NCBI RefSeq assembly: GCF_009914755.1
Contig: NC_060930.1
Strand: one strand, 5' to 3'
Origin: the human T2T-CHM13v2.0 reference genome, Homo sapiens
DNA: 64,000 nucleotides
Of the stretch, positions 5,765 to 29,200 are shown one piece after another (position 1 is the first letter of the stretch; the number at the start of each line of letters is the position of its first letter). The notes beneath the pieces are model-generated. The model did not search any database, was not told the origin of the DNA, and saw only the letters and a list, made by a program, of their open reading frames with translations. The position numbers and the translations under genes are program-made.

Positions 5765-6439
<675 letters not shown>

Positions 6440-6503
6440 TAGCGCTTTCGAGGAAGGGAGATCAGCTTTATTGAACACCTACTAATTCTCTGGATTTGAC
6501 TCA

Positions 6504-6863
<360 letters not shown>

Positions 6864-8915
6864 TTATAATACTGCAGTAATGTAGATGGTATTTGTATAC
6901 CCTTGCCAAGGTTTAAAAACATTAACTGATTTGCCCAAGGCCACAAGATCGTAATGGGGCCACAAAGATCGGAATGAGGATATTGGAATTTTAGCCATTC
7001 TGTGCTTTTTCACAATCTTTGCCTTTGGTTACACCACACTGTTTCTTTAAGAGAGCTTCCAGGCGCTGTTCTTAAGTCGCAGTGAGGCTATAGAGGACTT
7101 AGGCATGGGCTGTGTGATAGGTACTGCAAATGGGAGCGGTGGGGGTCAGGTGGTATTTGAACTGGGTTTATGAAAAATATGTGAGAGATTGGATAGGCAG
7201 AAAAGAAAATGGTCCCTTTCTGTCTTGGAAGGCTGGGATGGTTTGTGATCCTTCATCATCAGTGCCCAACACAGTACTTGATAGAATTGTCCTCTCATAT
7301 GTTTTGATTGAGGGAATGAATTTCACCATAGGGAGTTTTTGTAAGTACAAAAATTCAGTACTTATTGGGTAGCTACAAACCTAAAGCACTGTGCTAGGCA
7401 TATTCCTTGGAATCTTGCATTTAATTCCATGGACTCTCAGGCTTGTTAGGAGGTAGGCACACACTCACATATTTGACATGGTTAATAACAAGAAGTGTTG
7501 AGAGTAAAATTACTATTGTGAGAAGAGAGGAGAGAAATTGTGAATGAAGGAACTTGAGAAGTTCATGCAGTGGAGGTGGGATTTAAGCAGGACCTTGAAG
7601 AATAGGTAGGAGATAAGTTGAGGAATACTCAGGTTTGGGATGTCAGGTTTGATTTTCAATCAGATCTTGAAAGCATTGGAATTTCTTTAAAGATGTGAGA
7701 AGAATGATTTAAGAGTATTGGTATGAAGGGAAGAAAACAAAAGTTTTATTCTCTGTTCAATAAATTACCTGTGTGCTCTAGAGAGGCATACATCTTTGTC
7801 AGATTGGTAAATTTAAGTGCAGGGTTTTGTCAGAAAGGGAAGGCATAGGCCAGACAGTAACGCTTACAGGCTGATCTCTGATTGCCCTATCATCTTTCCT
7901 GCAGCCCGCAAGGAACATGATGACGCAGTAGCCTGTCATCACCAAATGATGATTTGCCCTATAGGGTAAAGTTTGATATATTCAGAGACTGACATTTATG
8001 GAACTTGCTAAAGAACTCAGCAGACCAATAGAAATCATGAGACTGTTAGGAGATGACACAATCCATGCCTAAACCAATGCAACCAGTTTTGCTTGGGGAA
8101 AAAAATAGGTGAAGCAAAAGTGGACATAAAGGCATTAAGCAACGTGGTGGATTGATGTACAGCCAGGTGATTCTTTTAAAGCAAGTATCTTTATCTTCCA
8201 GTAGGGAAGGAAAATGTATAGCTAAATTGTTTGACTTGATGACCGTGCCTACTAGTACAGACTATAATGTTGCCACATTTCCTTGTTTCTGCAAGTCCTG
8301 TGTTTAAATTGCTGATGTGATTCAGAAGTATCCTGTGTCATAGTTGCTAAAAGAAAAATGATTAGTAATTAAAAGGAAGAAGTAAGCTAAGCCAAGTTTT
8401 GGCTGAGAACTGAAAGGCACCTTAAGGAGCATTTTCAGTGAAAGGGCTTACAGGATTTTGTATCTTAACTGTAAAATCAGTTTTTTTGTTTGTTTTTTTT
8501 AAAAGAATAAGAAATATTCCTGAAATAAGAGACCTTCAATTAGTCCATTCTTGGTTTTGATTCGTTCATACATTCATTTACAGGTGACAGTTGGGGTCTG
8601 TTAAGTACCAGATACTCTTCCAGACATGGGAATGCAGCAGTGTACTCATGGAACTTAGATTTCAGTGGGAGTCTGACAAATAATATACGTGGGTAAATAT
8701 GTGGTAATGTAAGTGCAATGAGGAAAAGTAAAGCAGAGAAGGGAAGATAGGAATGTTGAAAGTCAGTGGTGTAGGAAGGGGTACAGTTTTAAATAGGGAG
8801 GCCAAGGAGAGGCTCTTTGAATATAGACTTGAAAATATAGGCCATGTGGATATGTAAGAATCACTCAGAGGGAGTATAGACATGTAAGCTTTATTTAGTG
8901 TTTCTTTTTCAGTGG

Positions 8916-9266
<351 letters not shown>

Positions 9267-9693
9267 TAGATATTTAACTATGAAAAATCCTATTGACATA
9301 CTCGTAAATGCCACTGGGATACAAGAAGTACAAGAAATGGTGTCTCTTAAAGAGTTTCCACTCAAGTAAGGATGTCCATTAAAAATTAACACAAGCTAAT
9401 ATAGAAATGCTAAGTGAATGGCAGATACTTTAAGGAGCGAAAAATGGAAAATTTCCCGGGTTACCTCCATATTTGTCTGGTAAGGAAGGGAGCAACACCT
9501 GAGCTGGACCTAGTCAAAAAGATAGAATTGGGATTGGCGTGAACAGTGTTCTCTGTGTGTGTGAATGGGGATTTCCCTAATGGCAGCATTCTCATTAGAC
9601 TAGGTTCAGTAATAGCATTGAGTAGAGTGTTGGGAGCAGTGAATTTATGTAATGAACAGTTGGGAAATGAGGTAGGATGAAGGCTTGGACAGC

Positions 9694-10205
9694 TATTCTG
9701 GTTACCTACTGCTTTGTAGAAATCTACCCAAAGCATAGTGTTTTAAAACAACAATTTATATATTGACTTAGTTCAGTTGGGCAGTTTTTCCTTTGGGTCA
9801 CTCATAGCTTTCATTCAGATAGAGTCTGGGACCCAAAGGTTTCTCCTTATGTCTGGTGCCTGGTTTTTGATGGCTGAAATAGATGGGGCAGGTTGGTCAT
9901 CTGGCTTCACATGGTCTGGAGGTTGACTTCAGGGTAACCAGTTAACTAACTTCCCCCAGAACAAATGTTTCCAGAGACTTGGCCAAAGGCTGAAGCTGAA
10001 AGATGTCTTAGGACCTAACCTAGGAAATCATGCAGTGTTATTTTTGCTATGTTCTCTTGGTCAGAGAAGTCTCACATCTGTTCTGCATCAAGAAAGTGGA
10101 GAAATGGACTTCACCTCTCAATGAGAAAATGGCTTGTGTAGAAAGGTTGGGTGAGGATTTGAAGGGAGATGGACGGGCAGCCACTTTGAAGACAAGCTTA
10201 CCACC
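9694..10205 (-). mobile_element. MLT1-type MaLR LTR (old)
   Basis: MLT1-like terminus (...ctacccaaagcatagtgttttaaaacaacaattt); boundaries approximate. Confidence 0.55.
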
Positions 10206-10726
10206 TTACATTTTATTCTGTCCTACACCCCTTTGCTCTCAAATTTGTACTTAAATTCGTTCTAATTATGGTTGGATCTAGATAACAACATTTAATCCTT
10301 AGACTAAAAGATCTATTATATTGACCTTAATTTGACTGCCAGCAAACTGATCTTTTTGTTTTTCACTACCTGCAATATTTCTTGATTATAATAGAGTCTG
10401 CAAGTAATTCTTTCATCTTTCAAAAATTCAGGTTGTTCTCTCAGGACAGTGATCAGGAATTTTTTGAGTTCAGAATTCTAGCGAGATTTGGCTGTTCTGT
10501 CTATATGATTATAATTTAAGAAATGACCATAACTGGGATGGTACAAGAACCAGGGGTTGGGGTAAATGGATTTTATTGTTCTAGCCTTAGCAGTGTTGTT
10601 TGCCTGTGTCTCACATGCAGGTACACTTGGCTCCAAGTTATCTGGATATGTATTGTTATCTTAAGTGATGGAACTTGTTCTTATTTCCTGGCTTTATTGT
10701 GCCTTGCTGGGAACCTTGCTGTTGAT

Positions 10727-10900
10727 TGGTATTTTTCAAAACCTGTCTGTGGACCATCTGTGAATTAGTCATTGGGGATGCTTATAAAAAATGCAGATTC
10801 AACACACTTAGTAATCAAACTTAATGAGGGAACTGGGACCTGGGCGTCTCTGTTTTTATCAAGCTACCTGTATGATACTTCTGCACACTGAAGTTTAACC
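10727..10900. mobile_element. MER5-like hAT DNA transposon remnant
   Basis: aaaaatgcagattc ... tttatcaagct ... ctgcacactgaagttt motif order typical of MER5A. Confidence 0.55.
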
Positions 10901-12053
10901 CTAACACAGATCAAAGGATACTCTGCTACTTGCCTTACATTAGATTATTTATATTTCATGTTCCTTTTCATGATTGAGGATAATTTGGGGTAAGCCTTAG
11001 GATTATTTGCTGTAAATTGGAATGATCCAGAATAAGGCATTGCCTTCTGTGTGAGAATTCAACAGTAAGACAACAAATTTTTTTTGTGTGCTGCTCTTTC
11101 TAGTGCTATTTCCTTAGTTTATTTAAATCGAAGCTAGGTTGCTTTTGAAATGGTTTTTGGGTACAGGTTTCTCACAGTAACATTTTAAAAGTCTGCCCAG
11201 TGTATCCTATCTTTTCAACCTGTTTCTCAATGCTTTGCATACCTTTTGCTATGTCTGTATTTAGGTATTTAATGTTCCAGTTTCCTGGAACTCCCTCTTC
11301 TCCTTTTTCTGGCAAATGGCTGTATGCCTACCAAGAGGCTATTGTTCATCTTTTCCGAGTCAATCCTAAATATCACCTTGTATATTTTTGCCTTTCTTGA
11401 CTATTCACTCCGTTCCCTATCTTACTATATCTCTGAATCTCCTCAGAACTTCAAACATCTCTAAAGGTACTTCTGTTCTCTGCTTTGTGTAGTCATATTT
11501 GTATGTATATGTGCATAAACTTTCTTACTAGATTATAAGCTCCACAGATGCTATCCATCCTTCTCATTTTTGCTTTTCTTACAGAGTGTATCTTGGTGTT
11601 ATGCATGTAATGAATAGTTAATATGTGTTCCTTGAATTCAAAGAAGGGCCGCATTTCCTGTAGATAAGAATAATGAACTGAGTTGCACTCTCTGCTTCCC
11701 AACACAATACCCAGAAGCCTTAAAGTAATGGAGGAAAATGAACATAGTTTACCCTAGTTTACTTAGTTGGCACAGTGACACAGATGCTATTGAGAAGTAT
11801 GATTTTCTTAAGTTTATTCTCCTTATGTTGAAATACAGAGGTGCCGGAAATGTTGAAAGTCTAAATATAAATGTGATTACATTTGACATACTGAATAGTA
11901 CAACCTAGTGTTTATCTTCCCTCATGTGGAAACTCATGTAAGGGAGCATTCTATTCTTAATCTCTACCTTTGTGTAGTTGACTTTTTGTACAGTTTCACA
12001 TTTATCTTAACATCCTGAAATGTCCTCTTCACCTTTTTCTGGCAAAGGGCTAG

Positions 12054-12368
<315 letters not shown>

Positions 12369-12557
12369 CTTGTTGATTCTTGTAAGTTCATCCTAACTAT
12401 CATCTCTGAAGTAGCCTCTCTCGACTGTTCCATCCCCAGTCTTACTCTGTCTTTGAAAAATTCTATCCTGCTTTTGTTAACTTTTTAAATGACTTTATTC
12501 TCTATGTACCCTTTTGTTTAACTATAGTACTGGATCTGTGTATTAAAGTAAACCTTT

Positions 12558-12852
12558 GCTGAGTGTGGTGGCTCATGCCTGTAATCCCAGCAGTTTAGGA
12601 GGCTGACATGGGAGGATTGCTTGAGCCCAGGAGTTTAAGACCAGCCTGGGGAATATAGTGAGACCCGCATCTCTGAAAAATAAAAATAGAAAATGAGCTA
12701 GACATGGTGTGTGCCTGTAGTCCCAACTACTCAGGAGGCTGAGGTGGGAGGATTACTTGAGTCCTGGAGGTTGGGGCTACAGTGAACCATGGTTGCACCA
12801 CTGTACTCTAGCCGGGGTGAGACCCTGCCTCAATCAATCAATCAATAAATCA
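12558..12852 (+). mobile_element. AluJ element with (TCAA)n tail
   Basis: Diverged dimer with ggaggattgcttgagcccagg (J-type). Confidence 0.88.
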
Positions 12853-15610
12853 AACCTGTATCTTAAGCGTAATAATTATCCTTTGTTGAACTTTTAGTCT
12901 GTACTGGATACTATAGAAAAGTGCCTTAAGTCATTAGCAGTTTTACAGATAAACTGAGATTTAAAAAGCCAGGTTCCAAATCTAGTAAGGAGCAGATCTA
13001 GAATTTGAACCAGATTTTTATTCTAGAGCTTTTGTGCTTAACCGTTACATTATTTTGATTTCCACTGGTAAAAGAATGTGACGACAGTAGTCACTTTTAG
13101 TACTGTTTCTGATTCTTTTGGGTCATCTTCAAGCTTTGGTAAACAGGCACTTATCTACAGGTTATAGAAATTATTTGTAAAAGATATTTAAAGACTAATA
13201 GAGATTTCTTCATCCCACTAGTGTACATGTTCATCCTTTGAGTTATAGGACACATTTTTTAAAAAACCAGCTAAAAATTTAATGTTATGGTGCTCCAGCT
13301 TTGTGTTGAGCTGTTAGTTTGTCAGGTGAGCAGATTCTGTAAATATATTCTCATTTTAAAAATGTCCAACAAGATGCCGAAAAAACCCACATGGATTGTT
13401 CATTTTACATATCTCTTGTGCTGACAAGCTAGGACTTAAATCTAGCCCTCATTTTGTTATATACTTTGTCACCATTACACATACCTGTTCTCTTACTACA
13501 GCACTGCAGTATAATTTTCTACAGTATAATTGTTGTTCTGTGAGGTGTCCTGAAGGGCTCTCTCCTGAAATAAAATAGCTTAATGGCCTATGTATTTTGT
13601 TATGATTTATTTTCTTATGACTACTTCAGTCATGTAAAATTTTAATGGTAGATTTTTTTCATTTTAAATAATTGCTCCATAAATATATGTTTTCTTCTCT
13701 GAAGATTGCTCTCTAGTCGTTTTATAATTGAGTTGTTAGAGGTAACTTAGGTGACTAGTTTAAAAAGAAAAAGAGGTAGGCCAATTTTTAGAACAGGCAT
13801 TTATTTATAAATAGAGATTACTTTAATTCCATAACCAGTGAAGTGCTTAATAATGAGGAGAGATTGTTTCAATGCTTATCTCATTTTTTTCTCTTGTTTG
13901 TTCTTGTAAGTACTTGCTATTATTTCTTAAAAAGTCTGTTTCTGTAGAAGGGAATAAATAATCACAGTAAAAATTCCAGTTTCAGATTTAAAAGAGATAG
14001 TAAATGTATTTTAAAAGTCTCATTTTATAGACTTGATTATACATTTCACATACCTTTTAAAATAATCAGTATTTGAGGAATGCAGATAAGATTTGCTGAT
14101 GGAATACTTGTCTAATTAAACTCCTTGTGACTTGGTTCCCTTAATTTAAAAAAAGTATGCATGTCATGACTTTATTATTCAGTTAATGTGTAAGACTGAA
14201 TACAGTATGTAACCTAGTAGGTAGATTAGGCAAATTAACTTCTACTCTACTCTGTTTTCTTCTAATCCATATGTGTGGCTTCTCCTCTGTTGTACTTCCA
14301 AATGTTGTGGTGTCCTAGAGTTTGGAGCTGTATGTATGCCTTTGTCTTTCTGTTACTCACTTTGTTGCAACTACTCAACTCTGCTAGTGTAGCCAAAAAT
14401 GGCCATAAGCAAATGTGGCTGTTTTCCATAGCAGTAGTTTGCTGACCCCTGTCCTGCAGATAATCTCCCCAATCCCATGGATTTAAATGTCACGTGTGTG
14501 CTGACACACAGGTTTGGGCTGGAAATACAGTCCTGATATCTCCCATAATTCCAGACTTCTATATCTAACTCCTTGTCTAAAATAATTTATTAGGTCAATC
14601 CTATGCCTTGTATGTCTAAAACAGTACTTTTTGAGACCTAATCCTTGTTTTAGTCTCCATTGCAGCCATCCAAGTTTAAATTACCATTGTTCTTTCACCT
14701 GGATTACTGTAGTAGCCTCCTAATTGATCTCCATTTTTCTATCCTGGTCCCTGTATAATCCATTCTTCACCTACCAGCGAGGTGATCTTTTTTTGATGGC
14801 ATCATTTGGACTGAATAAAACCCTCCAACAGCTTCTCGTTGTAGTTGGAATGCTTTCGAAATTCATTACCAAGGCCCACAGGCCCCTTCATGTTACGGCC
14901 ACTGCTGACATTTCTGGTGTCCATATGATACTCTACTTTCCTCGAATGTGATGAGAAACCTGACTGCTGAGAGAATATGCAATAGAGTGATTCCTATAAT
15001 AGCAATCACCTGGGGAAGTATTGATTTTTATATTTTAAGAACTGAAAAAAACAGCAAAAAACTTTTTGTTTAATACAGTTGTTAAAATAATCATGAGACT
15101 AGCACCAAGGAAGGATACATATTACACAAGTAAAAAAAGCAGGATACAAATTGCATAATCATATACACTAGGATTACATATGCATGTGGACAAAGACTAG
15201 AAAATATTGAGAAGTCGAAATAGTTGTGTTACAATGGTAAGGTTAGGGACATTCCAGTAGTTATGGGGAAGGTTAGGGAACATTCCCTTATTATCTAAAC
15301 ATTGAACATCTTATTTTTTAAGACTAGAATTTAAAACAAATGTTTCTTAGAATCTAAAATGAAGTCTTCATTTGGCCCCCAAAATGCATACCTGCTGTTT
15401 ATTAAGAAATAACAAAAGCATGGTAGTCTTTCTGAGGTATAACTTTGCTAGAATAATATTCTTCTTTCACGGAAGTTGAAGATTTTGTGGTTTTACTTTT
15501 ATTTTTTTCAACTTTTATTGTAGATTCAAAGGATATGTGTGCAGTTTCCTTACTTTGGAAATTGAAGATTTTCTCGTGTGTGTTTTGTCATAATGGCTAT
15601 TTGATATATC

Positions 15611-15891
15611 TTTTCTTTCTTTCTTTTTTTTTTTAGAGACAGGGTCTTACTTTGTTGCCCAGGCTGGAGTGCAGTGGTGCGATCATAGTTAACTGCAGCC
15701 TTGAACTCCTGGGCAGCCTCCTGAGTAGGTTGTACTACAGGCACAAGCCACCATGCCTGGCTAATTCTTTTATAAAGACAGGGTCTTGCTACATTGCTCA
15801 GGCTGGTGTCAAATTCCTGACCTCAAGTGATCCTCCCATCTCAGCCTCCCAAAGTGTTTGGGATTATAGGCATGAGCCACCATGCCCAGCC
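15611..15891 (-). mobile_element. AluJ element
   Basis: Diverged reverse-complement Alu. Confidence 0.88.
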
Positions 15892-16019
15892 CATTTAACT
15901 TTTTTCTTTATATTTCATATAGTTTACATTTGGGAAATTGAGAGTACGTGAAATATAATTTTAAAGCAACAAAACATAAAGTAAAAATCTTTAAGTCATT
16001 ATTGCAAAAACTTATTTTA

Positions 16020-16509
<490 letters not shown>

Positions 16510-17087
16510 GCTCTAGTCCTAGTTTTTTCGAAAAATACTACTCATTTATTAAAAGATAGGTTGTATTTATTTTATAAAATTCAACTTTTTTGGAGGAATT
16601 CAAAATTTAGTTGTATAGTGGAGTTTAGTATTGTTCCTTTATCAGAGTTAGAAATAGTAACTGAACTGAATAATTTGAGGGATACCTGGATTTCAGGCCA
16701 AATTCTTAGATGCTTGGCCAAAGACAATTGCTTGACCTTTATGGATCTTTTTCCTCACCTGTAAAAGGTTGGAATAAAGTGATTCTTGAGGTGCAATACT
16801 ATATAATTCTGTAAAATACTGTTTTCTTAAAAATTTGAGTATTTTCAAGTGTTTTCCCTTAATCAGTTATTTCTGAATGAATATGGCCTTAGCTTCCTTT
16901 TACATAAAATAACTTTTGTAATAGTTTCTTTATCATTTTGGCTTTAGTTTGGATCCTAGAAGGGAAACAGGATGAATTATAATATGAGAAAAAGAATCTG
17001 TACATATACTATGATATTACTAGAGGAATTGCCTGTTTTAGTCAAAGCCAACCTTATGTCTTGTATTTCTTGTGTATCATGTGAAGT

Positions 17088-17092
<5 letters not shown>

Positions 17093-17138
<46 letters not shown>
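17093..17138 (+). repeat. (TG)23 microsatellite
   Basis: Perfect TG run read directly. Confidence 0.95.
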
Positions 17139-17142
<4 letters not shown>

Positions 17143-18173
17143 CATTGAATCCTGAAGAAAACTGTAAGCTGATAATATTGCTTGTGAATAAGTATGATCA
17201 GATTTCTGGGTGGGGGTCAAGTTATGAGTTATTAGGAATCATCTTGCCCATAGTGTCTTATCTACACTCTTAGCAATTCTCAGAAACCATACCTTTAAAT
17301 TTTACTTCTGCATCCAAATCAGCCAAGAAAGATTCTGTTCCAATAACTGTATGAAAGTCTTTATAAGAGACATTTTGTAACTGTGTCTCTCTGTAATATT
17401 CTTTCCTTTTAGTGGAACTTCTGCCTGTGTGCAATAAGGAAGTGTCTGCTTTTATTGTGGGATGTTCCTGGAAACTTAAGAAAAATTCCATTCAGTGACA
17501 TGTTCCTTTATGTTTCATTATTGTTAAGCAGCACTTTGTACATTGGTAATTCAGTTGATTAAATAAACATTGAACTGCTATATGGAAAATATGGGAAAAG
17601 AGATGAGTAAGACACATTCACAAATAAGACTACAGTTGAGGGGAGGGTGGAGAGATTTAAGCTATAATAAAAAGTAGAATATTCGTTTATTAACAAGTTT
17701 AAATGAGTGTATGTGGAGGGGTTGAGAGTGAGGGTAAGTCAGAGGAGGAATGGGGCACATCTGGCTGGGGAATTGGGAAAGGCCTCTTGAAGGTAAATGA
17801 CATTTCAGCTGGCCTGTGAAGAATTAGGAGAATTTAACAGGCATGGGCTTGGGGAAGTGGCATAAAGGATGGAGGTTGGAGTCACTCCATGTGTTTTTGA
17901 GGAACATAGGCAATTCTAATTTGTGGGGATAAAGTATTACTGGGAAATGGAAAACTTCATTTGATTTCTGTTCAACAAGCATGGAAGCATAGGCTGGAAT
18001 GTTAATGTTGGGCTGAGCAGTTCGTTCTTAATACACTAGGCATTTTAGGAAACATTTAAGATACTGAAGTTGGAATGTGCCAGGATTGAATAAGCTGGTG
18101 GTGAAGCTAGCAGTACTTAATAGAAGGGGGCAGGAACACCCACAGAAGTTGCTTATAATATTATAAGGAAGTA

Positions 18174-18466
18174 GGCTGGGCCGGTTGCTCATGCCTGTAA
18201 TCCCAATACTTTTTGAGGCCCGAGGAGGAAGGATCACTTGAGGGCCAGGAGTTAGAGACCAGCCTGGTCAACAAAGCAAAACCCTGTCTCTACAAAAATA
18301 AAAAATAAAAAAATTAGCTGGGCACAGTGATATGCACCTGTAGTCCCAGCTACTCAGGAGGCTGAGGCAGGGGAATCACAAGCCTAGAGGCTGGAGGCTG
18401 CAGTCAGCTATGATAGCCCCACTGCACTCAGCCTGGATGACAGGGTGAGACCCTGTTTCTTAAAAA
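18174..18466 (+). mobile_element. AluJ element
   Basis: Diverged Alu dimer. Confidence 0.88.
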
Positions 18467-19779
18467 TATGTGTGTGTATATATAATAAAGAACAGCACAA
18501 TGGCTTGGAGCAGTGTGGGCAATGGACAGAAAGGAATATGGATATAGGAAACATTGCTGTAAAAGAGTATATGGGCTTAGCATAATTAGTAGGGCTTTGG
18601 GGGTTGATAATGGGAGAGTAGAGAGAATGCCTGGGTGACTGGGCAGATACTGATGGCTTTTTTAGAAATAGAGCGTCAAGAAGGAGGACTTTTTTTTTTT
18701 TTAAATTATAAACCACTTTATAGCAATTACAATTTTAAATCACCTGCTGTCCTACTACCCCTATACATTTACTGTTCTCATTTTGCTTGTCCTCTTCCAG
18801 TCTTGTTCTTAAGTGCAAGTAAGTTATACACTTAAAGTCCTGCTCCTTTTAATTTATTTTCTACCCTTGATGTCATATAAGTGTTCCGAGAGCTAGCTTT
18901 ATTAGATAAGCCGCCAAGGTTTGGCTTTGTTCACTCTCGGATGCCTACAGAACTTCAAGGTAGAGTTAGATGTTTGAATGAACTAGAAATGTTAGGAACC
19001 AAATGATCCTGTTTCTACTTAAAATTTTAATGTTTTGTTCATCATGGATAGTTTGGCATTTTAATTTTTAAAGATACTGCATTGTTATTCATTATCTTAA
19101 TTACTGAGTTTTTTTGGCACCCCCTTAAATTTTTGCACCCCAAATTTTACCTCACTTATTTTTGTCTGGGCTTTCTTTGTTTTCAAGACTGGTGAGTGAC
19201 TAGAATCAGAAAAGAAGGACCACATGGACAGAAAGAGAGGGCTGAGACGGGAACCCTGAGGAATAATCTTTATTTAGGGTGAAAAGAAGAAGAGGATTCA
19301 GTGGAAAGTGAGAATGGGCCATTCAAGGAGCCAGGTTACGTGTTGAATCAGGAAGAGAACATTGAGACAAGTTGGGATAAAGATAGAATTTTGAGAAGGA
19401 AGCATGGTGGTCATTAATGGTAATGCTTCAGAGAAGCTGAGGAGGGAAGAATTAAGATTGAGGAGAGGTAGTGAATATTCTGGTGATAAGGTTGTCATCC
19501 ATTGCTTTGAAGAGGGCAAGAGTTCCTGAAAAGATTTACCATTTTAATCTGGAGGCTAAGGTAAATATGAACAAACTGGTGAGAACTGAAGGCTAGGTTT
19601 TTAAAAAGAGTATCAAAGGAGGGGATTGGTGTGATGTGAATAGACAAAGCAGGCTTTCCTAGTATTACCCGACACTATTAAAATGAATAAATCTTAGTTT
19701 TTATGGGAAAGGGAGTCATTTACCATTTGATTTTTAATAAACTTGTATGTTCTGGCTGGAGTGTTATGGAGATTTTACA

Positions 19780-20106
19780 TTTTTTTTTGTTTTGTTTTTT
19801 GTTTTTTTTTGTCTGTTTTAAAGAAAGAGTCTTTCTCTGTTGCTCAAGTGGAGTGTAGTGGCATGATCATAGCTCACTGCAGCCTTGAACTCCTGGACTC
19901 AAGCGATCCTCCCACCTCGGCCTCCTGAATAGCTGGGACTAAGAGCGTGTGCCACCACGTCCAGCTAATTAAAAAACATTTTTTTTGTAGAGACAAGGTC
20001 TTGCTATGTTGCCCAGGCTAGCCTCTAGTTCCTGGCCTCAAGTGTTCCTCCTGCCTTGGCCTCCCAAAGTGCTGGGATTACAGGTGAGAGCCACTGGCAC
20101 CCAGCC
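19780..20106 (-). mobile_element. AluJ element
   Basis: Reverse-complement Alu with degenerate T/G tail. Confidence 0.88.
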
Positions 20107-20949
20107 CATTGTTAAATTAAGAAATTTTTGAAGTTTATATGACTTCCACAATTTATACATATAATACAGACCAAAGTGTGGTCTAACTTGTATAGATAGT
20201 TGGAAATCTTGTAAAATTTATAAGCTGGCATCATATATTTTATATGCTGTTTTGGAATATATGCTTTTTATATACATGTGAATTTTATGATTGATATGGG
20301 GATATAATGATTATATCCTACACTTCTGCATTACTCCACAGGTATTACTGTTCTAAAGATTGCCATTCAAATAGCTCCTGATATTAATCACCTTCCTTTA
20401 AAAATTTTGCTAATATTTAGTGATATATTTTTTGCTTAATCTTGTTCTAGATATGGCTGTTTCAAAATGTTCACTTTTATATTTCCACGCTTAGAGTCTT
20501 ATGATTGTGGGCTTTCATAATTATTGTGGGCATTCATACGTAGTGCCATCTTAGCCTTCTACTTTTCTCTATATATACCTAATTATATTTGAAATCTTAC
20601 TAATCGTTATTCTTGTGTATATGGCTGTCCCACGTTAAGGAGGCTGACTCCCAAGTGTATATATATCTATGTCTCAGTTTCTGAGCTCCCATATTCTTTC
20701 AGCAGACATTTATTTATTGTTTGCTCTGTGCCAGGCACTGTGGTTGGCCCTGGTGAGCAAAACAGATAAGATCCCTACTCACATTGGTGCTTATATGACT
20801 TCTTTTGAACTCCTTCTGTGTCATCTCTCTTAATCACTTCTATAGTAATCCTCACCTAAATTTTCTATCATCGGCTGTCTAAAACCGAACTCATCCTTTC
20901 CTTCAAACAAGTTCTCTTTGTGGAATTTTCAACTTTTAAAAATGTTATC

Positions 20950-21241
20950 GGCTGGGTGTGGTGGCTCACACCTGTAATCCCAGCACTTTGGGAGGCCGAG
21001 GTGGGCGGATCACGAGGTCCGGAGGTCAAGACCATCCTGGCTAACACGGTGAAACCCCATCTCTCCTAAAAAAATACAAAAAATTAGCCGGGCATGGTGG
21101 CGCATGCCTGTAGTCCCAGCTACTCAGGAGAATCGCATGAACCCAGGAGGCGGAGGTTGCAGTGAGCCGAGATCATGCCTCTGCACTCCAGTCTGAGTGA
21201 CAGAGTGAGAGTCTGTCTCAAAAAAAAAAAAAAAAAAAAAA
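20950..21241 (+). mobile_element. AluSc/Y-like element with small internal deletion
   Basis: ggatcacgaggtc...gaccatcctggctaacacgg; lacks gctgaggcaggag in right arm; long A-tail. Confidence 0.9.
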
Positions 21242-21788
21242 GATTATCATTTTCTGCTACCTAGGATAAAAGCCATGGAATTTTCTACATTCACTTCTAA
21301 GTCAGTCATGTACCATATTCTCTCAATTCTTCCTTTGTGGTAAATCCTTTTTCCCCTCATCGCCTCGACAAATTATGTATGGACTAATACAGTAGTCTGC
21401 TGCTTGCCCTTCTATATGCTGTTGCCAGATTAATTCTTCTAAATATGCACATTTTTATGTATTTCCATATTGCTCAGAAATTGTTGCTTATCCATTTGAT
21501 AGGCAGAATGAGATAAAAACTAGGACTATCCTCTTACCAATTTTTTCATATCCTTTGCATCAGCAGCATTGGTCTGTTTTTTTAACATTCCGAACTCATG
21601 CTTTTTCTTAAGCATTTTTTCCCACCTGATATCTTCTCTAGTTTTTTCTGGTTTAACCTTCAGAGTTCATCTCAGCTCAAATCTTATTTTATAAAGCCTT
21701 CCTCACCAAAGGAGACTTTTGTAACTACTGTTACACATATACTTCTGGCTTGGCATTTGTATACAGTATATTCAGCAGGTTCTGTGCC

Positions 21789-21958
21789 ATAGATATAGAT
21801 ATATATATATATATATATATATAGTTCAAAATATATATTCAAAAGTGATATAATTTTGATTGTTTAATTATATATTGATTTAATATATTTATATTATATA
21901 TATTTAATATTTATTGATTTATATATTTAATTATATATTGATTGATATAATTTTAATT
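21789..21958. repeat. (TA)n and AT-rich low-complexity block
   Basis: Almost all A/T, with internally repeated ttaattatatattgatt and gatataatttt. Confidence 0.9.
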
Positions 21959-22353
21959 GATTGTTCAGAATACTCACCAGAATTTGCAAATAGTAATGAC
22001 AAAGATGATCAAGGTAAGCATGAGTGTATAATTGAACATGTAACATATGAAGATGTGTGTTTTGTGTTTCATGGCAATTTCTGTTACTCTGTCATTTATT
22101 CATCACGTTGCTCTGTTACTCTTTAATGTCAACATCTTTAATCATCAGATTTAGACTTTCCCATCTTAATCTTGGTAAAAAGTGAATACATGGTAAGGAT
22201 TTTATTAAACCAGGCAAATTTTTAAACTAGTTCCACAGAGAATCCATAGAATGGACACATTTGTAGGGATATTGAAATGAATATATAAATAGAGGTACAA
22301 CTGGTTGTTCTATGGGGTGAGGAAAGAAATTGAATCTTTGCTGGACAAGAAAG
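21959..22353 (+). repeat. Local duplicate of NUS1 exon 2 (last 55 nt) plus ~340 nt of intron 2
   Basis: Manual alignment to 23349-23744: about 11 substitutions and one 1-nt indel; both copies encode [14 protein letters not shown] and keep the AAG|gtaagc donor. Confidence 0.97.
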
Positions 22354-23240
22354 TTGGAAATTCTACAAAGAGAACTGGTTTGATGGAAAAGATTTAAGCA
22401 GCTTTATATGTATATATTTATTATATATATGTGTATATATTAGCCTGTGTTCTCTCTCCCAGTTATTTTGTTAAACTACTTTAAAGTCATGCCTGACTGA
22501 GAGTGCAGAGTAGGAACATTTGATAAAGATTAAAAAGGCAATGGCTACTAGAAAGCTGCCTCTGCAAATTGTCAAAGACTTGTTCCTTTTTTTTTAGTCA
22601 GAGCTCTTACTAGTTTTACATTAAATGTATGTCACATAGTTCCTTTGTCTTTCTCATCTTTCTCAATAACATGACAGTAGTTAACAGTGTTAACTTTTCC
22701 CTGCATAGAGGACCATACATTGTTCTTTGTATTTTATTTCTGTGCTTTGTTTTAAATTTACTAAATTGTTTTTCTGTTCTCTTTTTACGTAATCCTTATT
22801 ACTTCCTCTTATGATTTAAAAAACTAATCAAATTGAGGCAAGATTATTTAATACAAGTAGTAAATCTGCAGAAAAGGTACATTAGACTGTGAGTGAGGAA
22901 CATAACAGGCTCTAGACCACTGCTGCAGTTTATAATTTCTTGGAGAAGAACCTTAAAGAGTTTAGGCCTCAGTTTCTGAATCCATAAAGATTTTAAGTAA
23001 GTGATCTCTTAAAATTCCTAAGTCTAAATTTCTGTCATATTCACATGCCACTACTTAAGTAGTTACCTCTGTTCTTTTTTTTGCTGGAAGCCAGACTCTT
23101 GTATTAACAAAGTTTTGTTGTCATGTTTTCCTTTTAGATTCTAGTTTAGGACTAGTCATTACAGCTTTGTTTGACATTCGTTTAGTTCTGGATCTAGTGT
23201 TGTTTTCATAGCAAGCATTCACTTGAAGAGGAAAAATTAA

Positions 23241-23573
<333 letters not shown>

Positions 23574-24109
23574 TGAACACATGATAAGGATTTTATTTAA
23601 CCAGGCAAATTTTTTAACTGGTTCCACAGAGAATCCATAGAATGGACACATTTGTAGAGATATTGAAATGAATATATAAATAGAGGTACAACTGGTTGTT
23701 CTATGGAGTGAGGAAAGAAATTGAATCTTTGCTGGACAAGAAAGAATTTGCATGTCTATAGATAAGAATTTTGCAGTGTTATCTGAGAATCCCATCAATT
23801 GTAAGATAGCTCCTATAAAAGTAGAATTGATAAAGGTATGTATGCTATAGGCAATGCATATTCCACTCTAACAGTTTTTTCTTAGTCTTTATTTTTTCTT
23901 TTATTCTGTGTTACTGCTAACGATATCGCAATTATACAGGAAATTTTAGATGCGTGAAAATTTGTTAGCTAGCCTATAAAGTTTCTGTTTTCTAGAGGAT
24001 GTAGTCACAATGTATAGTCATTCTGAACACTTTGAAAAGAAGGCAGTGTATAAATATATACATGGATGTGATTTGGGATATATGGATCCTTTCAGAGGAG
24101 AATAGCTAA

Positions 24110-24469
<360 letters not shown>

Positions 24470-25148
24470 TAGTTTTGTCACACGAGGATACAGTATGAAA
24501 GAAAATATTTTTGTTTCTTTCACACCATAAAGCCTGATTCTTTTGTTGTTAATACCTGTTAAATTTCTGAAATTTAAAGACCTATGTAAAAATGGTTTCG
24601 AGACAATGAAATTTGTAGCCACTCACTCGCATGAGGATTTAATGGTAAAGGAGATGACCTTTGAGGATCTTTTTTGTAGTGATGAATATTCTTGAAAATA
24701 GGACTTCTGCTTGTTAGCCTTCCTCTCCCTCTTCCCCTTTCTTTTTAGTTTGAACTTTCCCTTAACTTTGAACTTAATCTTTTTATGAGGTGATCCCAGG
24801 AATATAATCTTACTGTTACCATGATTCCTTTTTAATTATTCTTTCTATTATGCTATACCAAATATACAACTGTATTTGTCATGTTATACCAAATATAACT
24901 TTTTTTCTTCAGCTGTTTAAATAAGCCTTTGGTTTGCATATTCTGTCTAGAGAATTCCCTCTAGGACCTTTTTGCCATAATGTCATGGTTCTTCTTGCTT
25001 ACTAGCATTAGCCTTGATCCTTTTGAAGAAAGACAATCTCTCTAGTAAATTCATGTTCATTAATAGCTTCTATAGGCATACAGTTTTAGACATTCATTCA
25101 TTTTTTATTACTTAGACTATCCATTTACTTATTAATCGTGCATTTTCA

Positions 25149-25466
25149 GGCTGGATGGGGTGGCTCACACTTGTAATCCCAGCACTTTGGGAGGCTGAGG
25201 CAGGTGGATCGCTTGAGCGCAGGAGTTTGAGACCAACCTGCGCAACATAGCAAAACCCCATCTCTACAAAAAATAAAAAATTAGCCAGGCATGGTGGCTC
25301 ACGCCTGTGGTCCCAGCTACTCAGAAGGCTGAAGCAGGAGTATAGTTTGAGTTCAAGAGGCAGAGGTTGCAGTGAGCCAAGATCGCATCAGTACACTCTA
25401 GCCTGGGTGACGGAGTGAGACCCTGTCTCAAAAAAAAAAAAAAAAAAAAAAAAAAAGAAAAAGAAA
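25149..25466 (+). mobile_element. Alu (J/S-like)
   Basis: Full dimer with long A-tail; TSD tgcattttc. Confidence 0.92.
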
Positions 25467-25864
25467 TGCATTTTCTATCTTAACTTATTTACTTAACTCT
25501 CCATTCTTTGTTTCTTCCACTTTGACATGTGTCCGTCACAGAGCAAAGTCCATCTCCCACTTCTTGGTTTCGCTAACTTCCTACTTTTGTTGACTACTTG
25601 CTTCTTACCCTACCCTGTCATTGCCTAATTATATTCAGGCTCAGTGAGTAGTAGACCATTATGGGGCCTCTCTGCTCAGATGTTACTGGGATGTTGACTG
25701 TTTCCTGCACCCTATGAGACCCTAATAAGAGAGTAATTTCATAAGGACATTCTAAAAGTTGATGGAGATCCAAAGATGACCTTCAGGTAGTCCATGGGAA
25801 AGCGCTAATGTTTATTAAGCCCAGTTGTTGCCTTCAGGCATTGTAAGCTTAGGATAAATGAAAA

Positions 25865-26273
25865 TGTACACAATTCTTAACTTATTAATTTGACAGAGGC
25901 AAGCATTCTGAATACCATCACCATCAAAAGTTCCTTTGTGACTGCATTTAGTCCCCACTCCTGCCCCCTAAACCAGCAACCACTGGTCTGGTTTCTGACT
26001 ATACTTTCGCTTTTTCTATAAATTTTATATAAAAGGAGTCATACAATATATAGTCTTTTATGTCTTGCTTTGTTTACTTACCATATTTTTGAGGTTCATC
26101 TATGTAAAATGCATTAGTTATTCATTGTTTTTTATTGGTGAGTAGTATTTTCTAGATATACCACGTTTTGCTTATGCATTCATCGGTTAATGCACATGTG
26201 GTTTGTTTCCAGTTTTTGAATAATGCTGTATGACTGTTTGTGTACAAGTTTTTGTGTGGATGTTTGTGTGTTT
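25865..26273 (-). mobile_element. Old L1M 3' fragment
   Basis: Antisense L1M 3' UTR-type sequence (ttcattgtttttattggtgagtagtatt...gtttccagttttt). Confidence 0.7.
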
Positions 26274-29200
26274 TCAAGAATTCAGAAAGTCAGAATTCTA
26301 TCAGATAAATTTAACAAAGAGAGTGAAATAATTAAAAAGAATCAAGCAGAAATTCTGGAGTTGAAAATGCAGTTGACATACTGAAAATGCATCAGAGTCT
26401 CTTAATAGCAGAATTGATCAAGCAGAAGAAAGTTACAAGCTTGAAGATAAGCTATTTACAAATACAGAGAGGAGACAAAAGAATGAAACACACCTACAAA
26501 ATCTAGGAAAAAGCCTCTTGAGGGCAAATCTGAGTTATTGGCCTTAAAGAGGAGATACAGAGAGAGAACGAGATGGGTTACAAAGTTTATTTAAACCTAG
26601 AGAACTTCCCAAACCTAGAGAAAAATATCAGCATTCAACTACAGGAAGATTATAGAACACCAAGCAGATTTAACCGAAAGATGACTACTTCAAGGCATTT
26701 AATAATCAAACTATGAAAGGTCAAGGATTTAAAAAAAAAATGGATCCTAAAAGCAACAAGAGAAAAGAAACAACATACAATAGAGGTTCAACATATCTGG
26801 CAGCAGACTTTTCAGTAGAAACCTTACAGGCTGGGAGAGAGTGGCATAACATATTTTAAAAAGTGGTGAAAGAAAGAAACTTTTACCCTAGAATAATAGT
26901 ATGCCCAGTGAAAATATCCTTCAAACACGAAGAAGAAATAGACTTTCCCAGACAAACAAAAGCTAAGAGATTTTATCAGCACCACACTTTCCCTGCAAGA
27001 AATGCTAAGGGGAATTGTTTAATCAGAAAGGAAAAGATGTTAATGAGCAATAAATCATCTGAAGGTACAACTCTCACTGGTAATAGTAAGTACACAGAAT
27101 GTTACAGAACTGTAACTGTGGTGTATAAAACTGTCAAGTAAAAAGACTAAAAGATGACCCAGTCAATAATAATAACTAAAACAACTTTTCAAGACATAGA
27201 CAGTACAATAAGATACAAATAAAAACAACAGAAAGTTTTAAAATGGGGAGATGAATGTAAAGTATACAGTTTTTATTAGTTTTCATTTTGTTTATTTGTT
27301 TATGCAAGCAGTGTGGTAATCAGCTTAAAATAATGGGTTATGACAGATAGTATTTGCAAGCCTCATGGTAACCTCCAATCAAAAAACATACAAGAGATAC
27401 ACAAAAAAATAAAAAGCAAGAAATTAAGTCATACCACCAGAGAAAATCACCTTTCCTAAAAGGAGGACAGGAAGGAAGTAAAGAAGGAAGAGAAGACCAC
27501 AAAACAACCAGAAAACAAATAACAAAATGGCAGGAGTAAGTCCTTATCGATAATAACATTGAATGTAAGTAGACTAAACTCTTCAAAAGACATACAGTGG
27601 GCGGATGGATAAAAAATAAGACCCAATGATCTGTTGCCTACCAGAAACACACTTCACCTATAAAGACACACAGACTGAAAATAAAGGGATGGAAAAAGAT
27701 ATTTTATGCCAACGGAAACCCAAAAAGAGCAGGAGTTACTATACTTATATCAGACAAAAGATATTTCAAGACAAAAACTCTAAGAAGAGACCAAGAAGTC
27801 CACTATCTAGTGATAAAGGGGTCATTTTAGCAAGAGGATATGACAGTTGTAAATACATATGCACCCAACATTGGAGAACCCAGATATATAAAGCCAATAT
27901 TAATAGAGCTAAAGAAAGAGAGAGAGAGAGACCCCAATACAATAATAGCTGGAGACTTCAACACCCCACTTTCAACACTAGACAGATAGAGACAGAAAAT
28001 CAACAAGAAACATTGAACTTAATCTGCACTGTAGACCAAATGGATCTAATAGATATTTACAAAACATTTTATCCAATGGCTGCAGAATATACATTCTCCT
28101 TGTCAGCACATGAAACATTCGCAAGAAGAGACCATATGTTGGGCCACAAAACAAGTCTAAAACATTCACAAACATTGAAATAATATCAAGCATCTTCTCT
28201 GACCACAATGGAATAAAACTAGAAATCAATAAGAGGAATTTTGGAAACTATACAAACACCTGGAAACTAATCAGTATGCTCCTGGATTACCAGTGGGTCA
28301 ATGAAAAAATTAAGAAGGAAATTGAAAAATTTACTGAAACAAGTGGTAATAAAAATACAACATACCAAAACCTATGGGATGCAGCAAAGCAGTACTAACA
28401 GGAAAGTTTAAAAGATCAGAGCAGAAATGAATGAATTTGAAATGAAAAAGTCTATACAAAAGATAAAAAATTTGGTGGTGTTTTAGAAAAGATAAAATTG
28501 AGAAATCTTTAGTTAGACCAAGGAAAAAAACCAGAAGACCCAAATAAATAAAATCAGAGATGGAAAGGAGATACTGCAACTGATGCTACAGAAATTCAAA
28601 GGATCATTAGTGGCTGCTATGAGTAACTATATGCCAATAAATTGGAAAATCTAGAAGAAATAGATAAATTCCTAGACCTACAACCCACCAAGATTGAACC
28701 ATGAAGAAATCCAAATCCTGAAGAGACCAATAATAAGTGATGAGGTTGAAGCTGAAGTAATGAAAAGTCTTAGAGCAGTGGAAAGCTCATGACTTGATGG
28801 CTTCATTGCTGGATTCTACCAAACATTTAAAGAAGAACTAATACCAATTCTACTCAAACTATTCTGCACAATAGAAAGGAGGGAATGCTTACAGATTCAT
28901 TTTGTGAAGCTAGTATTACCATGTTACCCAAACCAGACAAAGACACATCAAAAAAAGAAAATTACAAGCCAGTACCACTGATAAATGTTCATGAAGAAAT
29001 CCTCCACAAAATAATGGCAAACCAAATTCAACAATATATTAAAAAGACGATGACCAAGTGGGATTTATCCCAGGGATGCAAGGATGGTTGAACATACACA
29101 AATCAATGAATATGATATATTGACAGTATGAAAGATAAAAATCATGATCATTTCAATTGATACTGAAGAAGCATTTGATAAAATTAAACACTTGCATGAT

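What the first reader, a model, noticed from the sequence alone, without database searches (positions are those of the whole stretch)
21969..22013. Nascent in-frame 45-nt cassette exon created by one A>G change in a duplicated piece of NUS1 exon 2
Seen: the intron-1 copy reads ttttaattgattgttcAG|AATACTCACC...GATCAAG|gtaagc, while real exon 2 reads gattgttcAAaatac. The single A>G at 21968 creates a CAG acceptor, preceded by a T-rich stretch with TTAAT branch-like words, and the copy keeps the authentic exon-2 donor. The exon so defined is exactly 45 nt, phase 1-1, with no stop. Inference: inclusion before exon 2 would add [15 protein letters not shown] (308-aa NgBR with a duplicated acidic segment); use instead of exon 2 would give an in-frame 27-aa deletion (266 aa). 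This looks like exon birth by partial duplication in a dosage-sensitive disease gene. The polypyrimidine tract is mediocre, so usage may be low.
Basis: partly seen in the sequence, partly recalled or inferred. Interest (0 to 1): 0.8.

Follow-up and report, generated by a model that had tools for sequence, protein, structure and literature searches.

The report
Duplicated NUS1 exon-2 fragment, probable silent pseudoexon
A 395-base copy of the end of NUS1 exon 2 and the start of intron 2 sits in intron 1 and could in principle be spliced as a 45-base in-frame exon, but its acceptor site looks like ordinary intron background, so it is most likely a silent relic of an old DNA-repair insertion.

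Summary
Window 21959-22353 is a 97% identical direct copy of 23349-23744, which is the last 55 nt of NUS1 exon 2 plus 340 nt of intron 2. The only exonic difference is G at 21968 where the parent has A at 23358 (c.496). This G makes a CAG acceptor. All four processed NUS1 pseudogenes in the same genome carry A, so the G is derived in the copy. The 45-nt unit 21969-22013 is phase 1-1, has no stop and keeps the authentic exon-2 donor. Inclusion gives 308 aa and replacement of exon 2 gives 266 aa.

The acceptor has 10 of 17 pyrimidines against 13-15 of 17 for the real NUS1 acceptors. On a crude score, 469 of 2196 intronic AGs do as well or better. RefSeq lists one transcript (hub table), and seven paper searches found nothing on it. 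No RNA data could be queried.

New here: a 44-nt inverted copy of 20893-20936 follows the duplicate, joined through AAAG microhomology, and TA-rich repeats lie on both sides. That pattern indicates a complex templated insertion. Intronic divergence (K = 0.030) suggests ape-age origin. The best reading is a neutral pseudoexon with at most trace use.

The parts
21959..22353 (+). Intron-1 copy (A') of the 3' 55 nt of NUS1 exon 2 plus the first 340 nt of intron 2
   Evidence: 96.97% over 396 columns to 23349-23744, E = 0.0; 12 differences; the only two full-length matches in the assembly are this place and the parent.
23349..23744 (+). Parent segment: exon 2 bases 72-126 (23349-23403) and intron 2 bases 1-341
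   Evidence: exon limits from the hub's RefSeq table.
21969..22013 (+). Potential 45-nt in-frame pseudoexon (phase 1-1, no stop)
   Evidence: translation by coordinates. It is identical to exon 2 bases 23359-23403.
21967..21968 (+). AG of the candidate acceptor; the G at 21968 is derived (parent A at 23358 = c.496, first base of the Lys166 codon)
   Evidence: for the difference; 4 of 4 processed pseudogenes have A; weak pyrimidine tract, and the nearest upstream AG is 122 nt away.
22014..22019 (+). Donor GTAAGC, identical to the exon-2 donor, within a 134-nt run of perfect identity (21969-22102)
   Evidence: In the crude donor score only 4 of 1686 intronic GTs score at least as high.
22350..22393 (+). 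44-nt inverted copy of 20893-20936, overlapping the end of A' by the 4-nt microhomology AAAG
   Evidence: blastn 22354-22393 vs 20932-20893, 87.5%, E = 1.9e-8; local alignment, 39 of 44 identical.
20893..20936 (-). Source of the inverted piece, just upstream of an Alu-type element
   Evidence: SRP/Alu-type Rfam matches at 20951-21218; no other copy of 20870-20950 found in the assembly (low sensitivity).
21789..21958 (.). TA-rich compound microsatellite directly upstream of A'; it supplies the candidate branch sites and the poor pyrimidine tract
   Evidence: TRF arrays of periods 2, 4, 12, 13, 15, 24 and 39; sequence.
22405..22440 (.). (TA)n tract 12 nt beyond the inverted piece. Together with the left array it suggests insertion into one TA-rich tract.
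   Evidence: period 2, 18.5 copies.
21818..21833 (+). 16-nt fragment resembling the same exon-2 spot (14 of 16 to 23347-23362), carrying the ancestral A. It may be a further short templated piece.
   Evidence: 1 of 500 shuffles reaches the score. GTTCAAAATA occurs only here and in exon 2 within the window, with 0.37 expected by chance.

Best explanation
The feature is a neutral relic of one old, complex templated insertion into a TA-rich microsatellite in NUS1 intron 1. While a break or stalled fork in the TA tract was being repaired, the end copied 395 nt from a template 1.39 kb downstream (the end of exon 2 plus the start of intron 2, direct orientation). It then switched through an AAAG microhomology to a template 1.4 kb upstream and copied 44 nt in inverted orientation before rejoining. 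The copy brought an authentic strong donor into intron 1 but no acceptor. A later A>G at its tenth base produced a CAG. The resulting 45-nt unit is a pseudoexon: it has the right dinucleotides and frame, but its acceptor is no better than about a fifth of all AGs in the NUS1 introns, and it is short. I expect it to be skipped in nearly all transcripts, with at most trace inclusion (PSI well under 1-2%) and no selected function. Shown here: the duplication, its limits, the derived G, the frame, the inverted second piece and the weak acceptor context. Inferred: the repair mechanism, the age and the lack of usage.
For: The second, inverted templated piece with AAAG overlap comes. TA-rich arrays lie on both sides. 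A possible third 16-nt fragment appears. The G is derived, since 4 of 4 processed pseudogenes have A. The acceptor is weak: 10 of 17 pyrimidines against 13-15 of 17, a longest pyrimidine run of 4 against 5-14, A instead of G at +1, a crude score of -1.7 against 0.4-8.9, and 469 of 2196 intronic AGs at least as good. There is no sign of constraint on the copy. Zero differences in 45 nt is unremarkable at 3% divergence, and the 134-nt identical run has P = 0.084 under uniform placement. The hub's RefSeq table lists 1 transcript of 1 for NUS1, without this exon. No paper in 7 full-text searches describes a NUS1 pseudoexon, cryptic exon or isoform here.
Against: The donor is the real exon-2 donor with 89 nt of identical downstream intron, and it ranks in the top 4 of 1686 intronic GTs on the crude score. 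The CAG is the first AG after a 122-nt AG-free, U/A-rich stretch containing TTGAT words that put a candidate branch A at -24 and -28. The unit is in frame and purine-rich. NUS1 is broadly expressed (recalled), so some junction reads in very deep data would not be surprising. My acceptor score is home-made from recalled frequencies and is not MaxEntScan or SpliceAI. Exon 4 of NUS1, a real exon, scores only 0.4 on it, so the scale is coarse. No RNA data were examined. The 44-nt piece is 11% diverged against 3% for the main piece, so a common origin in one event is an inference.
Confidence: 0.7

Rival explanations
1. The unit is a genuine low-level alternative cassette exon. The derived CAG is used in a minority of transcripts (PSI about 1-10%, perhaps tissue-dependent). 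This gives a 308-aa NgBR with a second copy of the acidic flexible loop inserted after Gln138, or a 266-aa form when exon 2 is skipped as well.
For: The frame, the lack of stops and the authentic donor support it. The CAG is the first AG after a 122-nt AG-free zone containing branch-like TTGAT words. The duplicated peptide corresponds to residues 166-180. Residues 167-175 were removed as an assumed-flexible loop for crystallisation with unperturbed catalytic activity (PMC7573591, passages seen; the shortened constructs are visible). An extra copy of this loop could therefore be structurally tolerated.
Against: The acceptor cannot be told from background. The unit is only 45 nt. There is no RefSeq model (hub table) and no mention in the papers found. 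A second in-frame AG 12 nt downstream (21979-21980, giving a 33-nt unit) scores slightly better (-0.7) on the same crude scale, so even the exon limits are uncertain. The 266-aa form lacks residues 139-165 of the folded pseudo-cis-prenyltransferase domain (domain residues 100-293) and is unlikely to be functional (inference).
Confidence: 0.2
2. The unit is a selected, regulated new coding exon of apes or humans that gives NgBR a new property.
For: Only the permissive facts support it: the frame, the intact donor and 0 of 45 bases changed relative to exon 2.
Against: Zero changes in 45 nt are expected by chance at this divergence. About 0.7-1.4 changes are expected (my arithmetic), so P(0) is about 0.25-0.5. 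The intronic part of the copy next to it is equally unchanged for a further 89 nt, which argues against exon-specific constraint. The acceptor is weak and there is no annotation.
Confidence: 0.04
3. The unit is a non-coding splicing element. The extra strong donor in intron 1 binds U1 snRNP and acts as a decoy or a resplicing/telescripting site. It would modulate removal of the 17-kb intron 1 or use of exon 2 without ever appearing in mature mRNA.
For: An intact, strong 5' splice site with its native downstream context lies 1.26 kb upstream of the exon-2 acceptor. A second donor-like site, ATG|GTAAGG, was created in the copy by G at 22193.
Against: There is no direct evidence. Three other intronic GTs in NUS1 score at least as high on the crude scale, so such sites are not special. 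Conservation could not be tested.
Confidence: 0.05

Closest known systems
Pseudoexons: intronic stretches flanked by splice-site-like sequences that are normally ignored, some of which are activated by deep-intronic mutations in disease (general concept recalled; activated examples in AGTPBP1 and ATM seen in passages of PMC13206262)
   Same: It is intronic, has AG and GT in the right places and a plausible length, is absent from the reference transcript, and has one good site and one poor site. A single further mutation that improved the pyrimidine tract could activate it.
   Different: Its donor and body are not chance look-alikes. They are a true copy of a constitutive exon end, so the exon body, the donor and 89 nt of downstream intron are native. 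It is also in frame, so activation would not cause nonsense-mediated decay.
Tandem exon duplication giving alternative or mutually exclusive exons
   Same: An intragenic copy of exon sequence lies in the neighbouring intron, in the same orientation and the same phase.
   Different: Only 55 of the 126 exon bases were copied, and the acceptor was not. The copy cannot substitute for exon 2, because replacement removes 27 residues. The acceptor had to arise by mutation. The event included an inverted piece from elsewhere.
Complex rearrangements by replication-based template switching or microhomology-mediated repair (FoSTeS/MMBIR-type events and templated insertions; concept recalled, not read here)
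   Same: There are two, possibly three, short templates, all within about 1.4 kb of the insertion point. Orientation is mixed. A 4-nt microhomology lies at the internal junction. The insertion sits in a structure-prone TA-rich tract.
   Different: This is a fixed, old, small (about 0.44 kb) event seen in a reference genome, not a de novo pathogenic copy-number change. The empty ancestral site was not seen, so the breakpoints are inferred.

Membership tests
Alternative cassette exon | AG acceptor and GT donor flanking an internal unit of exon-like length | tested here: met
   CAG|...AAG|GTAAGC, 45 nt.
Alternative cassette exon | Acceptor context (pyrimidine tract, -3/+1 bases) comparable with acceptors in use | tested here: not met
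   It has 10 of 17 pyrimidines against 13-15 of 17, a longest run of 4 against 5-14, and a crude score of -1.7 against 0.4-8.9. 469 of 2196 intronic AGs score at least as high. The score is home-made from recalled frequencies.
Alternative cassette exon | Observed inclusion in mRNA (junction reads, cDNA, annotated transcript) | not testable with these tools
   No RNA data are available here. The hub's RefSeq table shows 1 transcript without it. 7 paper searches found no report.
Pseudoexon | Lies within an intron of the reference transcript and has splice-site dinucleotides on both sides | tested here: met
   It lies within intron 1 (6324-23277 per the hub table); sequence.
Pseudoexon | Not spliced into normal mRNA | not testable with these tools
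   Only indirect evidence: absence from RefSeq (hub table) and a weak acceptor.
Tandem exon duplication | Whole exon with both of its splice sites duplicated | tested here: not met
   Homology starts at exon base 72 of 126. The 71 upstream exon bases and the acceptor are not copied.
Template-switch / microhomology-mediated complex insertion | Two or more templated segments from nearby sites, with mixed orientation | tested here: met
   395 nt in direct orientation from +1.39 kb. 44 nt inverted from -1.4 kb, 39 of 44 identical, E = 1.9e-8.
Template-switch / microhomology-mediated complex insertion | Microhomology at the junctions | tested here: inconclusive
   AAAG is shared at the junction of piece 1 and piece 2. 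At the left junction, TTGATTGTT also occurs 101 nt upstream in the array, but this is within chance expectation (2 found, 1.86 expected). The right junction into TA-rich sequence is undefined.
Template-switch / microhomology-mediated complex insertion | Empty ancestral site in an outgroup | not testable with these tools
   No primate genomes are held.

The most novel reading that the evidence does not exclude
An ape-lineage in-frame coding exon is being born in a haploinsufficient neurodevelopmental and movement-disorder gene. The derived CAG would be used in some tissue or cell state. NgBR would then carry a tandem second copy of its flexible acidic loop, placed between Gln138 and Gly139 of the cis-prenyltransferase-like domain. 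Variants in the TA-rich tract upstream, which is likely length-polymorphic, would tune inclusion between people.
Probability: 0.07. Interest if true: 0.6.

Novelty: new member of a known kind. Interest (0 to 1): 0.3.

Why it matters
As evolution, this is a clean, datable example of how a repair accident plus one point mutation places an almost-ready in-frame exon inside a gene. Without evidence of use it remains a pseudoexon.

Three practical consequences follow, all inferences from the anatomy.

1. The last 45 bases of NUS1 exon 2, its donor site and 89 nt of intron 2 are duplicated exactly 1.39 kb upstream, in a 134-nt run of perfect identity. Short reads from the exon-2 donor region can therefore be placed ambiguously. 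The A/G difference would appear as an apparent c.496A>G p.Lys166Glu if reads are mismapped or after gene conversion. No paper mentions such a variant.

2. The two 395-nt direct repeats could mediate a 1,390-bp deletion that removes the exon-2 acceptor and the first 71 exon bases. It would leave only the 45-nt unit and would be invisible to exome copy-number calling.

3. A deep-intronic variant that improves the pyrimidine tract at about 21949-21965 could activate the unit in patients. Because it is in frame, the transcript would escape nonsense-mediated decay and could be missed by expression-outlier tests.

Tried and rejected
- MaxEntScan, SpliceAI and similar packages are not installed. I used pyrimidine counts and a crude log-odds score built from consensus frequencies recalled from memory. 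It is coarse: real exon 4 scores only 0.4.
- Seven paper searches found nothing about this duplicate or any exon in intron 1: NUS1 + pseudoexon (2 papers), NUS1 + intron 1 + splicing (9), NUS1 + cryptic exon (4), NUS1 + exon 2 + isoform (2), NgBR + splice variant (18 papers, 15 listed), the structure papers (21, 12 listed), and NUS1/Lys166Glu/K166E (3, none on NUS1).
- The passages read concern other matters: a microdeletion, a NUS1 cDNA insertion in SLC25A13, expression changes, a 24-bp inversion at exon 3, c.791+6T>G, and a splice variant that lowers mRNA. Supplementary tables of these papers were not opened and could hold junction lists.
- A simple tandem duplication of a 1,390-bp unit was considered and rejected. 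The 995 nt between the copies have no second copy.
- Gene conversion as the cause of the 134-nt identical run is not supported (P = 0.084).
- The inverted 44-nt piece could have been a shared interspersed repeat. Searches of the assembly with 81-nt stretches around either member found only the query's own place, but that search is insensitive to short diverged matches.
- The Rfam scan of 20500-24800 gave 8 weak matches at E <= 1, none inside the copy.
- I did not fold the hypothetical isoforms, because spliced sequences are not letter-for-letter window translations.

Full report
**Observation**

A BLAST of window 20001-23200 against 23201-27000 returned 4 alignments. The relevant one is 21959-22353 = 23349-23744: 96.97% identity over 396 columns, 11 mismatches, 1 gap, E = 0.0. 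The other three are Alu-type or TA-repeat matches.

The parent segment is the last 55 nt of NUS1 exon 2 (23349-23403) plus the first 341 nt of intron 2. The copy lies in intron 1, 1,390 bp upstream, in the same orientation.

Column by column there are 12 differences in 396 columns:
- One falls in the 55 exonic bases: G at 21968 against A at 23358.
- Ten mismatches and one indel fall in the 340 intronic bases, giving a Jukes-Cantor K of 0.030.

The G turns CAA into CAG. The unit from 21969 to the retained donor (AAG|GTAAGC after 22013) is 45 nt, phase 1-1 and free of stops. Translation by coordinates gives 293 aa for the reference, 308 aa with the unit included and 266 aa if it replaces exon 2.

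**Direction of the change**

A search of the window's own assembly with the 395-nt copy gave 13 matches:
- the copy itself and the parent;
- four matches covering only the exonic bases 1-55 (one on contig 23, three on contig 13);
- seven weak matches (72-80%) to columns 250-392 on other chromosomes, which indicate that the distal intronic part is an old interspersed repeat.

The four exon-only matches are processed NUS1 pseudogenes. They align across the exon 1-2-3 junctions at 99.5, 96.4, 96.1 and 88.7% identity, and all four have A at the position in question.

**What the event was**

The copy is not a plain duplication.
- Immediately after it, 22350-22393 is an inverted copy of 20893-20936. 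Identity is 39 of 44, blastn E = 1.9e-8 within the window, and it overlaps the end of the main copy by AAAG.
- The 995 nt between copy and parent have no second copy. This excludes a simple tandem duplication of a 1.39-kb unit.
- To the left of the copy lies a compound TA-rich array (21789-21958). Twelve bases beyond the inverted piece lies another (TA)n (22405-22440).
- Within the left array, 21818-21833 matches the same spot of exon 2 at 14 of 16 bases and has the ancestral A. One of 500 shuffles reaches that score. The 10-mer GTTCAAAATA occurs only there and in exon 2 in the whole window, with 0.37 expected.

I read this as one complex templated insertion into a TA-rich tract, with at least one template switch. 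It is of the kind attributed to replication-based or microhomology-mediated repair (a recalled concept). This is an inference, because the empty ancestral site could not be seen.

The 44-nt piece is more diverged (11%) than the main piece (3%). I cannot explain this beyond small numbers or error-prone synthesis.

Searches of the assembly with 81-nt stretches around either member of the inverted pair found only their own places. This argues weakly against a shared repeat family.

**Age**

Paralogue divergence and species divergence both accumulate as 2 x rate x time. An intronic K of 0.030 is about the level I recall for human-orangutan divergence, and about 2.5 times the level I recall for human-chimpanzee. 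Barring gene conversion, the insertion should therefore be shared by the great apes. The 134-nt run of perfect identity at the 5' end of the copy is not significantly long (P = 0.084), so conversion is not indicated.

**Is it an exon?**

The donor is as good as a real one. It is the exon-2 donor with 89 nt of identical intron behind it. Only 4 of 1686 intronic GTs in NUS1 score as high on my crude scale.

The acceptor is poor:
- 10 of 17 pyrimidines at -20..-4, against 15, 15, 13 and 15 for exons 2-5;
- a longest pyrimidine run of 4, against 14, 10, 5 and 13;
- A rather than G at +1;
- -1.7 bits against 6.2, 6.4, 0.4 and 8.9, on a log-odds score built from consensus frequencies that I recalled (not MaxEntScan);
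- 469 of 2196 intronic AGs (21%) do as well or better.

Points in its favour:
- C at -3.
- It is the first AG after a 122-nt AG-free stretch.
- TTGAT words place a candidate branch adenosine at -24 and -28.

A second AG 12 nt downstream (21979-21980) would give a 33-nt unit, also in frame, and scores slightly better at -0.7. With acceptor and donor thresholds set at this unit's own scores, the NUS1 introns hold 27 such AG...GT pairs of 25-300 nt, including this one.

The hub's RefSeq table lists a single NUS1 transcript without the unit. None of the papers found in seven searches mentions a pseudoexon, cryptic exon or isoform in intron 1 (passages read). I could not query RNA-seq junctions, so use is untested.

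**Protein consequences if it were used**

The unit encodes a near-copy of residues 166-180, with Lys166 replaced by Glu. Residues 167-175 were removed from NgBR for crystallisation as an assumed flexible loop, and catalytic activity was unperturbed (PMC7573591, passages). The shortened constructs are visible as PDB chains that match only the first 29 residues of the exon-2 peptide (2 of 5 distinct sequences).

Inserting a second flexible acidic loop after Gln138 might be tolerated. Replacing exon 2 would remove residues 139-165 inside the folded domain (residues 100-293) and is unlikely to give a working subunit. Both statements are inferences.

**Verdict**

The duplication and the mutation-made CAG are real. 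The best-supported reading is a neutral pseudoexon left by an old complex templated insertion (confidence about 0.7). A low-level alternative exon remains possible (about 0.2). A selected new coding exon is unlikely (about 0.04).

It is a new instance of known kinds: pseudoexon, partial intragenic exon duplication and template-switch insertion.

Its main practical value lies in three untested inferences:
- ambiguous read placement over the exon-2 donor, with an expected paralogous variant c.496A>G;
- a possible 1,390-bp repeat-mediated deletion that would remove the exon-2 acceptor;
- a site that deep-intronic variants could activate without causing nonsense-mediated decay.

Noticed in passing
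window 22192-22198: The copy has G at 22193 where the parent has A (23584). This creates a donor-like ATG|GTAAGG inside the duplicated intron-2 stretch, so it is a second mutation-made splice-site look-alike.
   Followed up: partly
window 21979-21981: A second CAG lies 12 nt inside the unit (CACCAG|AATTTG) and would give a 33-nt unit, also in frame. It scores slightly better than the proposed acceptor on the crude scale (-0.7 against -1.7). The same AG exists inside real exon 2.
   Followed up: partly
window 21818-21833 and 21846-21865: The TA-rich array upstream of the copy holds a 16-nt fragment matching exon 2 at 14 of 16 bases with the ancestral A. It also holds a 20-nt near-repeat of the left junction region (TGATATAATTTT...GATTGTT; 18 of 20). 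The array may have grown by slippage that included the junction, or it may hold further templated snippets.
   Followed up: partly
L003 (G000:C23:46921332-46924386), L004, L005, L006 (G000:C13): There are four processed NUS1 pseudogenes in the assembly. One, on contig 23, is 99.5% identical to the spliced exon 1-3 stretch and therefore very young. A paper passage (PMC12269974) describes a recurrent pathogenic insertion of processed NUS1 cDNA into SLC25A13 intron 16. NUS1 mRNA therefore seems to be retrocopied repeatedly.
   Followed up: partly
window 22208-22353 and 23598-23744: The distal third of the duplicated segment has 72-80% matches on at least 7 other chromosome places. It is probably an old interspersed repeat that the hub's list of masked stretches does not name.
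   Followed up: no
window 23358 (c.496): The only exonic difference between parent and copy corresponds to c.496A>G p.Lys166Glu. A call of this variant in NUS1 could be a paralogous-sequence artefact or a gene-conversion product. No paper with NUS1 and this change was found.
   Followed up: partly
window 24428-24458: A (TA)n tract starts 12 nt after the exon-3 donor and draws weak sub-threshold Rfam miRNA hits. TA-rich tracts recur around exons 2-3 of this gene.
   Followed up: no
window 20950-21241: An Alu-type element with a 22-nt A tail (SRP-like Rfam hits below the gathering score; TRF A-run) lies directly downstream of the 44-nt source segment 20893-20936.
   Followed up: no
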